Notes: generated by a model from the letters alone, not told the origin. A stretch of DNA of 64,000 nt from Phycisphaerae bacterium (GCA_963666835.2 CAXXGO010000001.1:1568001-1632000), one strand, 5' to 3'; positions 1,461 through 6,032 are shown, numbered from the stretch's first letter. Numbers and translations are program-made.

Positions 1461-2726
1461 ATGATACGCCTGGAGGTAGCCGTCTTTCTTGCATTTGCGG
1501 TAGCCCTCGGTAAGACCGCGTCCGAGGCGCAGGCACAGAACATATACTGGACGGACAGTGATGGTCGCTCCATTCGCCGCGCTGACCTAGACGGTACGAA
1601 CATTGAGGAACTGGTTACGCGCACGCCGGGGTTTCCAGCGGGAATAGCTCTGGACTTGTCGGCAGGCCGGATGTTTTGGGTCGAGTCGTCCGACGGAGAT
1701 TACTTTGGCGGTCGTGATCCATCGATTCGCCGCGGTCAGCTCGATGGTCTTGGCGTCGCGACGGTGTTCGCAGAGTCGTGGATGTACCCGCGGGACATCA
1801 CCCTCAACGTGAACGAGGGTAAGATGTATTGGAGTAGCGGAGTGTGTCGCGGCTGCTTGTGCAACGGCTTTCCCTCAATCCAGCGCGCTGACCTGGATGG
1901 TTCGGACCATGAGTTCCTCGCCGGGGAGACATCTTGTGCCCCGCGGGGGATTGCTCTCGATCCCTCGGCCGGCAAAATCTACTGGACCGACTGGGGAGGA
2001 TGCGGTATGCTCTTCACCATTCCTCCAACGCTCCAGCGCGCTAACCTGGACGGATCAGACCTCGAGATCCTCATCGACACCGACGTCTTCGACCCGGAGG
2101 CAATTGCTCTCGACTTGAGCGCCGGCAAGATGTACTGGACCGAACTCGCGACGTGGGGCGACGTTCCCGCAAGAATCCGGCGGGCCAATCTGGACGGATC
2201 CGAGATCGAAGACCTGGTGACTTACGGCCTATCCAAGCCCAAAGGGATCGCCCTTGATCTCGCCGCGAACAAGATGTACTGGACCGACTCGGGTACCGAC
2301 ACAATCAGGCGCGCCAATCTTGATGGCTCCGGCATTGAAACCGTGGTCTCCGCCACCTCGGCAGGCGCGAGCCCAACCGGTATTGCCCTCGATCTCACCG
2401 GCGCCTGCTGCCAAGTCAACGGAACGTGCGTCGACATGGACGGCACGGTCTGCGTGAATCAGGGTGGCAACCCCGGCGGGGCCGGTACAGTTTGCGACGG
2501 CGACCAGGACGGCGACGGCTTGGACAGATTCTGCGGCGACGACTGCCCGAACGACCCACACAAAACCTCCCTGGGCATCTGCGGCTGCGGCGTTGACGAC
2601 TCCCTTTTTGCCCCTGAATGCCTGGGTATTCCCACGGTCTCTGTGTGGGGGATGATAGTCTTGACGCTGCTTTTGCTCACCGCCGGGAAGGTCTGCTTCA
2701 CCAAGTACCGGCGCGAAGCTCAGTAG
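1461..2726 (+). CDS. Secreted YWTD (LDL-receptor class B) beta-propeller protein with Cys-rich segment and IPTL-CTERM sorting tail
   Basis: Signal peptide; repeated GIALDLSAGKMYWTD...IRRANLDGS blades; C-terminus GIPTVSVWGMIVLTLLLLTAGK...RR. Confidence 0.88.
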   Translation: MIRLEVAVFLAFAVALGKTASEAQAQNIYWTDSDGRSIRRADLDGTNIEELVTRTPGFPAGIALDLSAGRMFWVESSDGDYFGGRDPSIRRGQLDGLGVATVFAESWMYPRDITLNVNEGKMYWSSGVCRGCLCNGFPSIQRADLDGSDHEFLAGETSCAPRGIALDPSAGKIYWTDWGGCGMLFTIPPTLQRANLDGSDLEILIDTDVFDPEAIALDLSAGKMYWTELATWGDVPARIRRANLDGSEIEDLVTYGLSKPKGIALDLAANKMYWTDSGTDTIRRANLDGSGIETVVSATSAGASPTGIALDLTGACCQVNGTCVDMDGTVCVNQGGNPGGAGTVCDGDQDGDGLDRFCGDDCPNDPHKTSLGICGCGVDDSLFAPECLGIPTVSVWGMIVLTLLLLTAGKVCFTKYRREAQ

Positions 2727-3158
2727 CCTCCGAGGCCTTGGCCAGGGTCCTCGCGGCTTGCCTCCGGACTCCACGGCACCGCCAGGAGCCTCTGAAGCCC
2801 GGTCAGTCTTTCCGTGACTGCGGCGGAAAGAGACGTAACCATGGTACTGCGGTATCGCGACCCGAGCGGCCGAGCACAGTGCTCTGACACGGTGAGCGCT
2901 ACCGTGGTGATGGTCAAGCTGAAGCAGAAAGGTGTCAGGAGGAGTTTCTCGGGAACATTAACGCGAGTGCCGGGCTACGAGAACAGGATGCCTCTCTGTC
3001 AGAAGCGCCGGGGCTCGTCGATAACGCCTCGGTCTGCGGAGCGTTGCGTCGGCATGGCCATTCCCCAAAGCACTGGAAAACCAACCTGGGAAAGTTGCCC
3101 CCCTCGCGCGGAAACGACCCCTTTATCCAGATTCTCTCAATGCGTTATCTGCTATCTT

Positions 3159-3186
3159 CATGGCCACGCAAGCGTGGCGCATGGCA
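3159..3186. repeat. REP-like palindrome forming the 5' exon/target of the intron
   Basis: CATGGCCACGC-AA-GCGTGGCGCATGGCA hairpin; continues as CCCG at 4097 after the intron. Confidence 0.55.
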
Positions 3187-4096
3187 GGAGCAGCCGACAA
3201 GGCTGCGGATCTTATGGGGTGAGAGTCCCCTCGCCGTCAGTTTCCCGGTTCGGACGGCTAGCTTATTCGATGCACGTGTCTGGTAACAGCACGTGTTCTG
3301 CTCGAACGAAAACGCCACGGCTGCCCTGCAGGCTCAGAACTGCAGCGGTGGGAGCGATCGGGGTGGCAAGCAAACTTGGAGGCCTGAACATTAGTGAATG
3401 GCTGCAGCTGCGAAAGTACGCCCGCTCGGGAAATCGCTGGAGCGGATTATTGCGGGAAAGCCGACCCGATTGCCATGCGGGGAAGGCCGACGTCATCGAG
3501 GGAAGAAACGGGAATGTGCACCTCGACGACCCGCCGCGGTAGGGACCCAGGCATCCAAGGAAAGATCTGCAGAGATAACGTCGGGAAGGGCCATCTCCCA
3601 GCAGGGACTGGCGACAACCTGCGAAGACTCGCCGACCAAGGCAACGACCGTAGGCGGCGAGAGGGATTTGGTCCGGCGCATGGGCCCGTATGAGCGATGA
3701 AGGCGGGGTAATGCCCGCTGACGTAGCCCGCGAGGCTGCGACGTGACGGGTAACGCCCGAAGCGTGCAAAGGGGCCCTGGATACTTGGCGGTCCTGGGGC
3801 GCTCCCGGACATTGAGCCGGGATCGAGCGTACCCTTAAAGAGTGGACGAGCGTCGCATGCAAACCACAGCCAAGAGGGGCGTATACGAGCCAGCGTTTGA
3901 GTTTCCTTGGTTGTGGGCAGGCAGTGGCGGGACAAGCCAAGGTCAGAACCGGACTCGGGAAATCCGACCGTCCGGGATCGTAGGGGGGCCTCGGGAAACG
4001 TGGCTCATGGTGGAACTGTGAACCCACTCCGCAACCGAAAGGGCGGATCTGGAAACCCTCCACCTAAAAGCGCGCGCGCCCGAGTTCTATCCCGAC
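3187..4096 (+). mobile_element. ORF-less group II intron-like RNA (IIB-like) with atypical domain V
   Basis: D1 GGGGTGAGAGTCCCC hairpin; alpha TTTCCCG (3241-3247) pairs with alpha' CGGGAAA (3453-3459); EBS1 TGCCATG (3471-3477) in a stem-loop, complementary to 5' exon CATGGCA (3180-3186); D3-like GGGCCCGTATGAGCGATGAAGGCGGGGTAATGCCCGC...AAAGGGGCCC; D5 at 3946-3979; long D6 with bulged A4089 at -8 and AC terminus; D4 only ~150 nt with no RT ORF. The 5' junction is uncertain by 1 nt. Confidence 0.85.
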
Positions 4097-4142
4097 CCCG
4101 CCACCCGTTGCCTTCCTCTATAAGGGGCGGGGAATCCGGTGG

Positions 4143-6032
4143 TTAACCCGTTGCGTCTTTCACCAGCAAATCGTTTATCCGTTCGGCGAAGGCGGTGGGG
4201 TCCTCCAGCTTTGAGCCTTCGGCGATCAGGGCCTGGTCGTAGAAGAGGTGCGCGTATTTCTCGATCCGCGGGTCGGCGGGGTCTTTCTTGTGCAGATCAC
4301 GCACGGCCAGGACGGCTCGGTGCGCGGGGTTCAGTTCAAGCGTCTGCCGGGGACGGTCCGCGGCATCGCTGCGTCCGATTCGCTCCATGATCCGGCTTAT
4401 ATGCACGCCCATGGCGCCTTCGTCGAGGACCAGGCAGGCGGCGCTCTCGTTCATTCTCGTTGACAGGCGGACGTCCTTGACGCTCTCCAGGTGCTTACTC
4501 AGGTCCTTGAGCAGGTCGGCGAATTCGGTCCGGGCTTCGTCCAGCTTCTCCTTCTCGGTCTCGTCGGCGTCCAGCGCGCCTCTGTCCGCGGCCTTGAGCT
4601 TCTTGCCCTTGTATTCGGGCAGGGACGAGATCATGAACTCGTCGAACGGGTCGGTCATCAGAAGAACGTCGAATCCTCGGCTCCTGAACGCCTCGACGTG
4701 CGGGGAACGGGCGAGAAGGTCGCGGTCTTCGCCGACGAGGTAGAATATCTCTTCCTGCCCGTCGGGCATGGCCTCCACGTATTTGTCGAGGGTCGTGTAT
4801 TTGCCGGACTCAGTGGCGACGGACTCGAAGAGGGTGAGTCCGGCGATCCGCTCGCGGTTGGACCAGTCGTGAGTGACGCCTTCCCGGAGAATGCTCCCCA
4901 ACTCCTCGTGAAACTCGACGTAGGCGTCGTAGTCCTCGGTCCGCAGTTCCTCCAACGCCGAGAGGACCCGCTTGACGATGTTCTTCTGGATCTTGCCCAG
5001 AAGCGGGTTCTGTTGGAGCATCTCGCGGGATACGTTCAGGGGCAGGTCGGTGCAGTCCACCACGCCGCGCACGAACCGCAGGTAGCCGGGCAGAAGCGCC
5101 TCGCAATGGTCCGTGATGAACACCCGCCGGACGTAAAGGTGCAGTTGCGACTTCGGCTCCCCCCAAGCTAAGTCCAGCGGCTTGTGCTTGGGAATGTATA
5201 CGAGCACGCGGAACTCCGTAGCGCCCTCGGCGACGTAGTGGATCGTCTTGACCGGGTCGTGAAAGTCGCGCGAGATGTGTTTGTAGAACTCCTTGTGCTC
5301 TTCCTCGGTTACCTCGGACTTGGGGCGGAGCCAGATGGCCTTGCGGGTGTTGAGCGTCTCCTCCGTGACGGTTTTCACCCCTTCGTCGTCTTCCTTTTCG
5401 ACGTCCATGACTACGGGGTGCTCGATGAAGTCGGAGAACTTGGTCACCACGCGGCGCAGACGCATCGGCTGCAGGTATTCGCGGGCATCTTCGCGCAGGT
5501 GCAGGGTGACGTCCGTTCCACGGGTCTCTTTCTCGACCGATTCGATCGTATACTCGCCCTGGCCGTCGGATTCCCATCTGACTCCGGCGTCCTTCGCCCC
5601 GCCCGGCCGCGATAGCACCGTAACGCGATCGGCGACGATGAACGAAGCGTAGAAGCCGACCCCGAACTGTCCGATCAGGTCCGGGCGGTTCTTCACGTCG
5701 GCTTGGGCGAGGTTTTGCAGAAACGCCTGTGTGCCCGACTTGGCGATAGTGCCCAACTCGTCGACGATGGACTCACGGGACATGCCCGTTCCGTTGTCAG
5801 AGACGGTGAGCGTACCGGCGGTCTCGTCGACCGAGATACGGATCTTCCAATCGGAATCACCTTCCAGGAGATCCTCGTTTTCAAGCGAGTTGAACCGGAC
5901 GCGATCGATGGCGTCACACCCGTTACTGATCAGCTCCCTAAGGAACACATCCTTGTCGGAGTAGAGTGAGTGGGTGATGATGTCGAGGAGCTGTTTCAGT
6001 TCCGTCTTGAATTCGAGCGTTTCTGCGCTCAT
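4143..6032 (-). CDS. htpG: Chaperone HtpG (Hsp90)
   Basis: HSLYSDKDVFLRELISN, LGTIAKSGT, IGQFGVGFYASF, DLPLNVSRE motifs. Confidence 0.98.
   Translation of the reverse strand: MSAETLEFKTELKQLLDIITHSLYSDKDVFLRELISNGCDAIDRVRFNSLENEDLLEGDSDWKIRISVDETAGTLTVSDNGTGMSRESIVDELGTIAKSGTQAFLQNLAQADVKNRPDLIGQFGVGFYASFIVADRVTVLSRPGGAKDAGVRWESDGQGEYTIESVEKETRGTDVTLHLREDAREYLQPMRLRRVVTKFSDFIEHPVVMDVEKEDDEGVKTVTEETLNTRKAIWLRPKSEVTEEEHKEFYKHISRDFHDPVKTIHYVAEGATEFRVLVYIPKHKPLDLAWGEPKSQLHLYVRRVFITDHCEALLPGYLRFVRGVVDCTDLPLNVSREMLQQNPLLGKIQKNIVKRVLSALEELRTEDYDAYVEFHEELGSILREGVTHDWSNRERIAGLTLFESVATESGKYTTLDKYVEAMPDGQEEIFYLVGEDRDLLARSPHVEAFRSRGFDVLLMTDPFDEFMISSLPEYKGKKLKAADRGALDADETEKEKLDEARTEFADLLKDLSKHLESVKDVRLSTRMNESAACLVLDEGAMGVHISRIMERIGRSDAADRPRQTLELNPAHRAVLAVRDLHKKDPADPRIEKYAHLFYDQALIAEGSKLEDPTAFAERINDLLVKDATG

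What the first reader, a model, noticed from the sequence alone, without database searches (positions are those of the whole stretch)
3187..4096. ORF-less group II intron-like RNA with a rewritten catalytic centre
Seen: all six domains are recognisable and long-range pairings are intact (alpha-alpha' 7 bp, EBS1-IBS1 7 bp, D1 closing CCGAC/GTCGG, branch A at -8, AC end). D5 reads GAACCGGACTCGG-GAAA-TCCGACCGTCCGGGATC, so the triad is AAC instead of AGC/CGC, the bulge is CC instead of AC, and the triad faces GAT (an internal loop). The 5' end is GGAGC/GAGCA rather than GUGYG, and D4 has no RT. Known: the triad G, the AC bulge and the GUGYG start are nearly invariant in active introns. Inference: changes concentrated at catalytic positions in an otherwise preserved fold do not look like random decay. 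This may be a distinct lineage, either with altered chemistry or a non-catalytic passenger RNA spliced or mobilised in trans.
Basis: partly seen in the sequence, partly recalled or inferred. Interest (0 to 1): 0.85.

Follow-up and report, generated by a model that had tools for sequence, protein, structure and literature searches.

The report
Gene-less group II intron, odd core
A 910-base self-inserting RNA element (a group II intron) with no enzyme gene of its own sits behind a repeated hairpin, and it belongs to a very widespread bacterial family whose catalytic hairpin and first bases break the textbook rule yet are strictly conserved.

Summary
Window 3187-4096 is one discrete 910-nt element. 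Its ends are fixed exactly by four near-identical copies in this genome and by empty target sites.

It is not a decayed single copy. It belongs to a roughly 840-940-nt, consistently ORF-less family found in many bacterial phyla. An alignment of 38 full-length members folds into six group II domains, and 34 of 38 predicted helices carry compensatory changes. A 7-nt EBS1 and a 1-nt EBS3 covary with the flanking DNA. Alpha-alpha' and beta-beta' pairings also covary.

The odd catalytic features are lineage-wide:
- The D5 triad reads AAC in 78 of 79 pattern-found copies, and in 58 of 68 copies found through an unrelated motif. None of the 68 read AGC or CGC.
- The 5' end reads GGAGC in 44 of 54 copies, and none reads GUGYG.

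Copies truncated at the 5' end but intact at the 3' end point to reverse transcription. The enzyme is probably supplied in trans by the 12 copies of an RT-encoding intron in this genome. That step is inferred.

Many relatives sit inside other introns; this copy sits in a REP hairpin. I found no paper describing the lineage (nine searches). Earlier notes of this scan report the same family on other DNA. No splicing activity was shown.

The parts
3156..3186 (+). REP-type palindromic repeat that serves as the target. Its last 7 nt, CATGGCA (3180-3186), are IBS1.
   Evidence: Three of the 4 full copies and one truncated copy abut this repeat. Empty sites read ...CCATGGCA|CCCGG. The genome holds 36 exact copies of the 3' shoulder AAGCGTGGNCCATGGCA.
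3187..4096 (+). The whole ORF-less group II intron-type element (910 nt).
   Evidence: Ends defined by 4 copies and by empty sites. Full-length homologues in other genomes.
3187..3191 (+). Non-canonical 5' end, GGAGC.
   Evidence: G1 and G2 invariant, A3 in 36 of 38, G4 in 36 of 38, C5 in 33 of 38. GGAGC in 44 of 54 ends of an independent sample; none reads GUGYG.
3194..3584 (+). Domain 1 (closing helix 3194-3198 / 3580-3584).
   Evidence: RNAalifold consensus of 38 sequences with compensatory pairs in nearly all D1 helices. RF02003 match at 3213-3393.
3242..3247 (+). Alpha (pairs with alpha' at 3509-3514).
   Evidence: 6 bp, 4 with compensatory changes, found by a scan for pairings outside the nested structure.
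3354..3358 (+). Beta (pairs with beta' at 3433-3437).
   Evidence: 5 bp, 4 with compensatory changes.
3471..3477 (+). EBS1, UGCCAUG.
   Evidence: Each of its 7 columns pairs with flank positions -1 to -7 in 29-32 of 32 elements with distinct flanks; the next-best columns reach 19-27. Confirmed in a second sample.
3542..3542 (+). EBS3, G (pairs with C4097, the first base after the element).
   Evidence: Watson-Crick pair with the +1 base in 31 of 32 elements; the next-best column reaches 21.
3585..3677 (+). Domain 2.
3675..3678 (+). J2/3 region, GGCG (G 37/38, R, C 38/38, G 37/38).
   Evidence: Assigning these bases to the catalytic triple helix is inference.
3679..3779 (+). Domain 3.
3780..3944 (+). 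Domain 4: structured, no ORF.
   Evidence: Family lengths are 836-937 nt.
3946..3979 (+). Domain 5, 34 nt: triad AAC (3947-3949), CC bulge (3968-3969), GA (3976-3977) facing the middle A.
   Evidence: 12 bp, 100% paired. The closing pair covaries G-C / C-G / A-U. AAC in 78 of 79 and in 58 of 68 copies. 75.5% identical over 49 nt to the D5 of a canonical intron of this genome.
3983..4093 (+). Domain 6, long form, with bulged branch-type A at 4089.
   Evidence: The base helix is supported by G-C to A-U and G-U to A-U changes. A903 invariant in 38 of 38.
4094..4096 (+). 3' end, GAC.

Best explanation
Window 3187-4096 is an intact, recently mobile, non-autonomous group II intron of a widespread and structurally distinct ORF-less lineage.

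**Shown**
- It has the six-domain group II fold with alpha-alpha' and beta-beta' pairings.
- It reads its DNA target with a 7-nt EBS1 (3471-3477) and a 1-nt EBS3 (3542). There is no EBS2.
- It is inserted precisely and without target duplication between ...CAUGGCA and C... at the 3' shoulder of a REP hairpin.
- It stands in 4 near-identical copies.
- The lineage keeps AAC instead of AGC/CGC in D5, GA opposite the middle A, and GGAGC instead of GUGYG at the 5' end.

**Inferred**
- The RNA is transcribed by read-through and excises itself.
- It reverse-splices into single-stranded or replicating DNA at sites matching EBS1 and EBS3.
- It is copied into DNA by a reverse transcriptase made by another intron. 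The 12-copy RF02005-type RT intron of this genome is the obvious candidate.
- Because the variant core bases are conserved in a family that keeps moving, they most likely form a working active site, not a dead one.
For: **Copies and ends.**

**Family.**
- At least 122 stretches in genome contigs across many phyla.
- Full-length nhmmer matches.
- At least 120 stretches in metagenomes found with a motif that is not in D5.

**Fold.** 34 of 38 predicted helices carry at least one compensatory pair. Alpha and beta pairings covary. The D6 base helix covaries.

**Guides.**
- EBS1 columns pair with the flank in 29-32 of 32 elements, and EBS3 in 31 of 32.
- In a second sample, 21 of 45 distinct flanks pair at 6-7 of 7 positions in strictly aligned columns.
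- All 4 own copies fit, including the non-REP copy CGUGGCA|C.

**Conserved core.**

**Retro-mobility.** Copies truncated at the 5' end share the exact 3' end: G084 holds 457-, 661-, 795- and 797-910, and the own genome holds two of about 70-76 nt.

**RT supply.**
- The genome-wide RVT_1 search gave 14 matches, 12 of them near-identical with open frames of 451-508 aa. RF02005 and RF00029 matches lie around them.
- All 4 of the 101 family genomes that carry the D5 pattern also carry RF02005 introns, against 43 of 101 overall.

**Precedent.** RTs that splice and mobilise ORF-less introns in Thermosynechococcus elongatus (abstract of PMC2882425).
Against: - No activity was shown. The reads laid were contigs only and showed no ligated-exon junction.
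- Rfam's D5-D6 model does not match at all, and RF02003 is below its cut-off in this copy.
- The G of the triad is held to be near-invariant in active introns. This is recalled knowledge plus a passage in PMC8637638. An AAC core could therefore be crippled and need help.
- RT in trans is inferred. The element shares no nucleotide similarity with the co-resident RT introns apart from 49 nt at D5, so there is no recognisable shared RT-binding site.
- G059 holds deletion derivatives of the element but no RF02005 match.
- The 4-of-4 co-occurrence gives about p=0.03 if relatedness is ignored, which is weak.
- The first sample fixed most D5 bases through the search pattern. The second sample is anchored on another family-specific motif, so relatives lacking that motif were not sampled.
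- My covariation counts are simple. They carry no phylogenetic correction, and the structure was predicted from the same alignment.
Confidence: 0.8

Rival explanations
1. Non-catalytic passenger. The AAC domain 5 is inactive, and the element is cut out and inserted with catalytic help from elsewhere. The help could be a canonical D5 of a co-resident or host intron acting in cis or in trans, or host RNases together with the RT.
For: - Six of 32 full-length relatives sit in the terminal loop of a canonical host D5, so an AGC-type D5 helix closes directly around the element's two ends.
- Others sit elsewhere inside RF02005 introns.
- That triad G is important is recalled knowledge.
Against: - The four copies here and the copy in G028 lie in REP or other non-intron sites, and their EBS1 is tuned to those sites. 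So copies outside a host D5 keep moving.
- D5 is the most conserved part of the element, including AAC and the opposing GA. A useless hairpin would not be expected to stay that way.
Confidence: 0.12
2. Domesticated or dual-use RNA. The family is kept mainly for a cellular or anti-mobile-element job, for example as an RNA-guided hydrolytic nuclease like the HYER ribozymes, and not as a selfish intron.
For: - Sequence conservation across phyla is very high.
- The element is ORF-less like HYERs, which are ORF-less IIC introns that cut DNA guided by a 6-nt site (passages in PMC11754743 and PMC12990946).
- Many targets are other mobile elements.
Against: - The distribution is patchy: 4 of 101 genomes of the family.
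- Copies are multiple and near-identical.
- There are truncated and internally deleted derivatives.
- Insertion sites change with EBS1.
All four points are the behaviour of a selfish element.
Confidence: 0.06
3. Degenerate relic. This is one decayed copy of an ordinary group II intron that lost its ORF and collected random hits in D5 and at the 5' end.
For: This copy scores below Rfam's thresholds.
Against: The same bases are found in relatives only 76-78% identical and in other phyla. Four copies are 99.6-100% identical. The guides match the flanks.
Confidence: 0.01
4. DNA transposon or REP-associated element (for example a non-autonomous IS200/IS605- or IS110-type element) that only resembles an intron.
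For: It inserts next to a palindromic repeat without target duplication.
Against: - RNA-type covariation runs through the whole length.
- Internal guide loops are complementary to both flanks.
- There are D5/D6 with a bulged A and 5'-truncated copies.
- No transposase is associated with it.
Confidence: 0.01

Closest known systems
ORF-less group II introns of Thermosynechococcus elongatus, spliced and mobilised by RTs of related introns (Mohr, Ghanem & Lambowitz 2010, PMC2882425; I read the abstract)
   Same: - No RT gene.
- Multiple copies.
- Divergence of target specificity.
- Preferential insertion into other mobile introns or IS elements.
- RT supplied in trans.
   Different: - Going only by a section title in that paper's outline (I did not read the section), those introns derive from one ORF-containing intron of the same genome by ORF deletion.
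- That their cores are canonical is my recollection.
- This element shares only 49 nt of similarity with the RT introns beside it.
- It belongs to a lineage spread over many phyla that is always ORF-less.
- It has AAC and GGAGC.
Nested introns of Methanosarcina acetivorans, ORF-less and RT-encoding (Dai & Zimmerly 2003, as summarised in the review PMC4424553; I read passages)
   Same: Site-specific homing of introns into other group II introns, which builds nested arrays.
   Different: - Relatives of this element target specific RNA-structural spots of RF02005-type introns: the D5 loop, sites in D1, and a hairpin after the RF02005 match.
- The window copy itself is not nested.
Class C (IIC) introns, and the RF02005-type RT introns of this genome
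   Same: - No EBS2 and an EBS3-type 3' exon contact.
- D1 5' region of the same Rfam clan (RF02003/RF02005).
- Similar 3' end (CUAUCCCGAC against CUACUCCGAC) and branch A position.
- D5 sequence similarity.
- Three of 4 copies lie behind a hairpin.
   Different: - EBS1 is 7 bp, whereas IIC introns use a short one plus a hairpin (review passage, and recall).
- The ribozyme is about 0.9 kb.
- The triad is AAC.
- The 5' end is GGAGC, against GUGGG/GUGCG in the co-resident and host introns.
- There is no ORF.
HYER ribozymes (Liu et al. 2024 Science; known to me only through passages in PMC11754743 and PMC12990946)
   Same: ORF-less bacterial group II intron derivatives guided by a short pairing sequence.
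   Different: - HYERs are described there as IIC introns of 0.4-0.6 kb (HYER1 is 637 nt) with a 6-nt site.
- I could not see their sequences, so whether any has an AAC triad is unknown to me.
- This element is 0.9 kb, and insertions show that it integrates fully.
Circularly permuted group II introns (Roth et al. 2021, PMC8637638; I read passages)
   Same: A natural group II-type lineage without an ORF that departs from the standard D5 (unpaired A of the triad, UN bulge).
   Different: Those keep the AGC letters and have permuted domains. This element has the normal domain order and AAC.

Membership tests
Group II intron (ribozyme/retroelement) | Six helical domains around a central wheel | tested here: met
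   RNAalifold on 38 full-length relatives. 34 of 38 helices have compensatory pairs.
Group II intron (ribozyme/retroelement) | EBS1-IBS1 pairing with the 5' exon | tested here: met
   7 columns pair with flank positions -1 to -7 in 29-32 of 32 elements. In a second sample, 21 of 45 flanks pair at 6-7 of 7 positions.
Group II intron (ribozyme/retroelement) | 3' exon contact (EBS3-IBS3 or delta-delta') | tested here: met
   Element position 356 forms a Watson-Crick pair with the +1 base in 31 of 32 elements.
Group II intron (ribozyme/retroelement) | Long-range D1 pairings alpha-alpha' and beta-beta' | tested here: met
   6 bp and 5 bp, each with 4 compensatory pairs. The names are assigned by position, which is inference.
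Group II intron (ribozyme/retroelement) | D5: about 34-nt hairpin with a 2-nt bulge, just before D6 | tested here: met
   Window 3946-3979. 12 bp, CC bulge, 3-nt linker to D6.
Group II intron (ribozyme/retroelement) | Catalytic triad AGC (or CGC) at the base of D5 | tested here: not met
   AAC here. AAC in 78 of 79 and in 58 of 68 relatives; AGC in 1 of 79.
Group II intron (ribozyme/retroelement) | 5' end GUGYG | tested here: not met
   GGAGC here. GGAGC in 44 of 54 ends, and none reads GUGYG.
Group II intron (ribozyme/retroelement) | 3' end AY, and a bulged A in D6 7-8 nt from the end | tested here: met
   Ends ...CUAUCCCGAC. A903 invariant. The helix below it covaries.
Group II intron (ribozyme/retroelement) | Match to the curated Rfam models | tested here: not met
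   RF00029: none at E<=10. RF02003: 30 bits against a cut-off of 49. Relatives pass RF02003 in 3 of 20 loci.
Group II intron (ribozyme/retroelement) | Intron-encoded RT/maturase in D4 | tested here: not met
   No ORF with a Pfam match. No RVT_1 match in the element. Family lengths are 836-937 nt.
Group II intron (ribozyme/retroelement) | Self-splicing / reverse splicing activity | not testable with these tools
   Only indirect evidence: precise insertions, matching guides, truncated copies.
Class C (IIC) introns | Short EBS1 plus a stem-loop upstream of the site; no EBS2 | tested here: inconclusive
   No EBS2, and a REP hairpin lies upstream in 3 of 4 own copies. But EBS1 is 7 bp, and relatives' flanks show no constant hairpin.
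HYER ribozymes | ORF-less IIC intron, 0.4-0.6 kb, hydrolytic cleavage guided by a 6-nt site | not tested
   ORF-less, but 0.9 kb.

The most novel reading that the evidence does not exclude
A lineage of group II introns spread across bacterial phyla, missed by D5-based searches, works with a rewired active site: AAC triad, extra GA opposite it, and a GGAGC 5' end. It carries out full splicing and reverse splicing and lives as a hyperparasite. It has no RT, borrows that of other introns, and often homes into them, even into the loop of their domain 5. If so, the G of the triad that introns share with U6 snRNA is not indispensable, and ORF-less introns are not rare in bacteria.
Probability: 0.5. 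Interest if true: 0.82.

Novelty: new variant of a known kind. Interest (0 to 1): 0.7.

Why it matters
- **The catalytic core.** The AGC/CGC triad and the GUGYG start are treated as near-invariant marks of the group II active site. The same triad is found in U6 snRNA; that point is recalled. A large, evidently mobile natural lineage that keeps AAC and GGAGC instead would show which parts of that core can be rebuilt, and it offers a ready set of natural compensating changes to test.
[quoted passage not shown] Later census pipelines find introns through RF00029 (passage in PMC8919778), which does not see this family.
- **Hyperparasitism.** The nesting inside other introns makes hyperparasitism among retroelements directly testable.
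- **Possible tool.** A 0.9-kb protein-free RNA that reads 8 nt of DNA could also be of practical interest.

Tried and rejected
- **Rfam at gathering thresholds** over the whole window found nothing.
- **Bigger intron, 5' truncated?** I first thought the element might be the 3' part of a bigger intron. In G176 and G047 a strong RF02005 match and a GUGCG start lie just upstream. I rejected this because the sequence after the element's 3' end continues the host intron, matching the uninterrupted copy in this genome. So it is an insertion, a twintron.
- **Upstream GUGCG as the true 5' splice site?** GUGUGCG lies 2-4 nt upstream in many relatives. I rejected this reading because it is the 5' half of a host D5 whose 3' half follows the element.
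- **RNAalifold's pairing of G1G2 with C905C906**. I rejected it in favour of the D6 base helix, which covaries.
- **A local 5' hairpin GCAGCC/GGCUGC.** I did not adopt it, because the long-range D1 helices have compensatory support.
- **Sequencing runs**. All four runs are kept as contigs. No joint across 3187-4096 was seen. Three other joints involve relatives in metagenomes. Contigs of relatives do occur in two RNA libraries, but DNA carry-over cannot be excluded. None of this bears on splicing.
- **Promoter and terminator scan** of 2600-4300: no promoter-like site, and terminator-like sites at chance level.
- **Simon et al. 2008** (PMC2525955), the D5-based search for ORF-less introns, is not held. 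It may bear on novelty.
- **The HYER paper itself** is not held.
- **Plasmid collection:** three partial, unannotated matches.
- **Ten of 68 metagenome loci** had no D5 in the expected place. Six are truncated or rearranged copies by nhmmer, and four gave no HMM match.

Full report
**What is there.**
The stretch lies between two convergent genes. One is a beta-propeller protein with LDL-receptor class B repeats (1461-2726, +). The other is an Hsp90/HtpG homologue (4143-6032, -). The ORFs that overlap the stretch match no Pfam family. A BLAST of 3150-4130 against the window's own genome found four full-length copies. They differ from the window copy at 3, 4 and 3 of 910 positions. It also found two short pieces that carry only the last 70-76 nt.

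**Exact ends.**
Aligning the copy ends and reading unoccupied target repeats fixes the element at exactly 3187-4096. It starts GGAGCAG and ends UAUCCCGAC. It lies between ...CCATGGCA and CCCG... with no target duplication. Three of the four copies sit at the 3' shoulder of a REP-type palindrome. Exact copies of that shoulder occur 36 times in the genome. The fourth copy sits at CGTGGCA|CC.

**Is it intron-like by the standard tools?**
Only weakly.
- Rfam at gathering thresholds finds nothing in the window.
- With permissive settings, RF02003 (group-II-D1D4-4) matches 3213-3393 at 30 bits (cut-off 49, E=2e-4).
- RF02005 matches 3406-3540 at 16 bits.
- The D5-D6 model RF00029 does not match at E<=10.

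**Relatives.**
- In 101 genomes of the same taxonomic family, 6 have BLAST matches. In 279 genomes of the order, 9 do.
- These include a 99% copy in another genus (G028), full-length copies at 76-78% identity (G176, G047), four 5'-truncated copies in G084 (element positions 457-, 661-, 795- and 797-910), and internally deleted derivatives in G059.
They come from Bacillota, Acidobacteriota, Actinomycetota, Desulfobacterota, Planctomycetota, Nitrospinota, Proteobacteria and others, as titled in the records.
- An HMM built from three copies aligns end to end with many of them.
- I extracted 38 full-length members of 836-937 nt. None contains an RT.
- Of 22 long neighbouring ORFs tested, 5 are group II RTs. 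These belong to other introns beside or around the element. The remaining 17 ORFs were ordinary genes or transposases (14) or had no Pfam match (3).

**Fold.**
- MAFFT plus RNAalifold on the 38 sequences gives a six-domain structure. In element numbering (window = element + 3186): D1 8-398, D2 399-491, D3 493-593, D4 594-758, D5 760-793, D6 797-907.
- By a simple count, 34 of 38 predicted helices contain at least one pair with compensatory changes. A compensatory change here means two standard pair types, each in at least 2 sequences, that differ on both sides. Paired fractions are mostly 90-100%.
- A scan for pairings outside the nested structure found 56-61/323-328 (6 bp) and 168-172/247-251 (5 bp), each with four compensatory pairs. 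By position these are alpha-alpha' and beta-beta'.
- These counts have no phylogenetic correction, and the structure comes from the same alignment.

**Guides.**
- For each flank position I asked which alignment column pairs with it across 32 elements with distinct flanks.
- Positions -1 to -7 are matched by columns 285-291 in 29-32 of 32 elements. The next-best columns reach 19-27.
- Position +1 is matched by column 356 in 31 of 32 elements, all Watson-Crick.
- Positions -8 to -13 and +2 to +4 have no partner.
- So the family reads 7 + 1 nt by EBS1 and EBS3 and has no EBS2.
- In the window, UGCCAUG (3471-3477) pairs with CAUGGCA (3180-3186), and G3542 pairs with C4097. The non-REP copy fits as well, with one G-U pair.
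- In a second sample, found through a D1/D2 junction motif in metagenomes, 19 of 45 distinct flanks pair 7 of 7 and 2 pair 6 of 7 in strictly aligned columns. Several of the rest look shifted by 1-2 nt.

**The odd core is a property of the lineage.**
- Among 79 distinct D5 contexts from the pattern scan, which allowed A or G at the middle position, 78 read AAC and 1 reads AGC. That pattern fixed most other D5 bases, so it says little about them.
- I therefore drew a second sample with a motif 375 nt upstream of D5.
- Of 68 distinct usable loci, 50 match a loose D5 expression and all 50 read AAC.
- Eight more have AAC hairpins with compensatory stem variants.
- Ten have no D5 at the expected place. 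Six of these ten are truncated or rearranged copies by nhmmer, and four gave no HMM match.
- None reads AGC or CGC.
- The closing pair covaries (G-C, C-G, A-U). The base opposite is GA, or CA in one subfamily. The bulge is CC or CU.
- The 5' end is GGAGC in 44 of 54 ends of the second sample. The others read GTAGC, GGAGT, TGAGC, GGAAC and GGGGC. None reads GUGYG.
- D6 has an invariant bulged A eight positions from the end. The helix below it shows G-C to A-U and G-U to A-U changes.
- D5 is still recognisably homologous to a canonical D5 of this genome: 75.5% over 49 nt, the only similarity between the two kinds of intron.

**Where the family lives.**
- In G176 and G047 the element sits 19-38 nt after a strong RF02005 match (198.6 and 118.6 bits). 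The host intron sequence resumes after the element's 3' end. These are twintrons.
- G018 has the same arrangement.
- In 6 of 32 full-length relatives the flanks are the two halves of a canonical host D5, so the element lies in that D5's terminal loop.
- Others lie in host D1.
- In one locus an RT-encoding intron has inserted directly after the element's own D5.
- Eight of 20 loci scanned have another group II Rfam match within 3 kb.
- The window copy is a stand-alone insertion in a REP.

**How it most likely works.**
- Shown: precise, guide-matched, duplication-free insertions; near-identical copies; 5'-truncated copies that keep the exact 3' end. These are the marks of reverse splicing followed by reverse transcription from the 3' end.
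- Inferred: the RT comes from elsewhere. The genome-wide RVT_1 search gave 14 matches, 12 of them near-identical with open frames of 451-508 aa. They lie within RF02005-type introns that start GUGGG and sit behind another palindrome.
- All 4 of the 101 family genomes that carry the element's D5 also carry RF02005 introns, against 43 of 101 overall. That is weak support. G059, which has only deletion derivatives, has none.
- Precedent: the T. elongatus RTs that splice and mobilise ORF-less introns (abstract of PMC2882425).
- Because the element keeps moving from non-intron sites while AAC, GA and GGAGC stay fixed, I think the variant core is active. This was not tested, and a helper-dependent passenger remains possible.

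**Known or new?**
- ORF-less, trans-mobilised and nested group II introns are known. ORF-less IIC-derived HYER ribozymes are also known.
- In nine searches and readings I found no description of a lineage with an AAC triad and a GGAGC start, or of homing into D5 loops.
- The review PMC4424553 names such a gap explicitly.
- Simon et al. 2008 and the HYER paper were not available to me, so prior description cannot be excluded.
- Earlier notes of this scan report the same or a very similar family in at least eight other genomes. I treat them as leads, and my tests agree with them.

**Verdict.**
It is a group II intron by fold and by target recognition, but it fails three textbook marks: the triad, the 5' end and the ORF. 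I file it as a new variant of a known kind.

Noticed in passing
window 3156-3186; G000 genome-wide: REP-type palindrome CTTCATGGCCACGCAAGCGTGGNCCATGGCA. The genome holds 36 exact 3' shoulders, 33 on one contig strand and 3 on the other, some in arrays about 120-240 nt apart (for example C6:794399, 794595, 794791). It is often paired with a second repeat, GGCAGGTCTCGT(A/T)CCTCGACC(A/G)TGCCCTAC.
   Followed up: partly
L035-L046 (G000, 12 places): A 12-copy RT-encoding intron of RF02005 type. It starts GUGGG, always sits just after another long palindrome (CCATCCATTCCGGCG...CGCCGGAATGG), and has a D5 in which the triad G faces an A, not a U.
   Followed up: partly
L083 2-99, 613-1953, 2046-2140: The reverse nesting: an RT-encoding intron inserted directly after the D5 of a relative of the element. 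The element's D6 follows about 1.9 kb later.
   Followed up: partly
L069 (minus strand), L094-L098: Two copies of the element 890-1006 nt apart in Solirubrobacterales records. In L069 one copy ends 13 nt before the next, and those 13 nt are the 5' half of a host D5.
   Followed up: no
L131 (minus strand, D5 at 1770): The single relative with AGC instead of AAC in an otherwise family-typical D5.
   Followed up: no
L006 1469-1576 (G000:C1:375980-376086): A 5'-truncated copy (last 65-70 nt or so) sits directly behind a REP. The bases CCCGGCA appear to stand on both sides of it, a possible short duplication or microhomology join.
   Followed up: partly
L023, L027, L020 (G059): Internally deleted mini-derivatives of the element (for example positions 1-247 joined to 768-909, about 360 nt) in a genome with no RF02005 match.
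   Followed up: partly
L048 (G000:C6:1809235-1809837): A further RVT_1 match inside a 958-aa open frame, unlike the intron RTs. I did not examine it.
   Followed up: no
plasmid records NZ_OY970457.1, NZ_CP095745.1, NZ_CP073678.1: Partial matches to the element on three plasmids, with no annotated feature under them.
   Followed up: no
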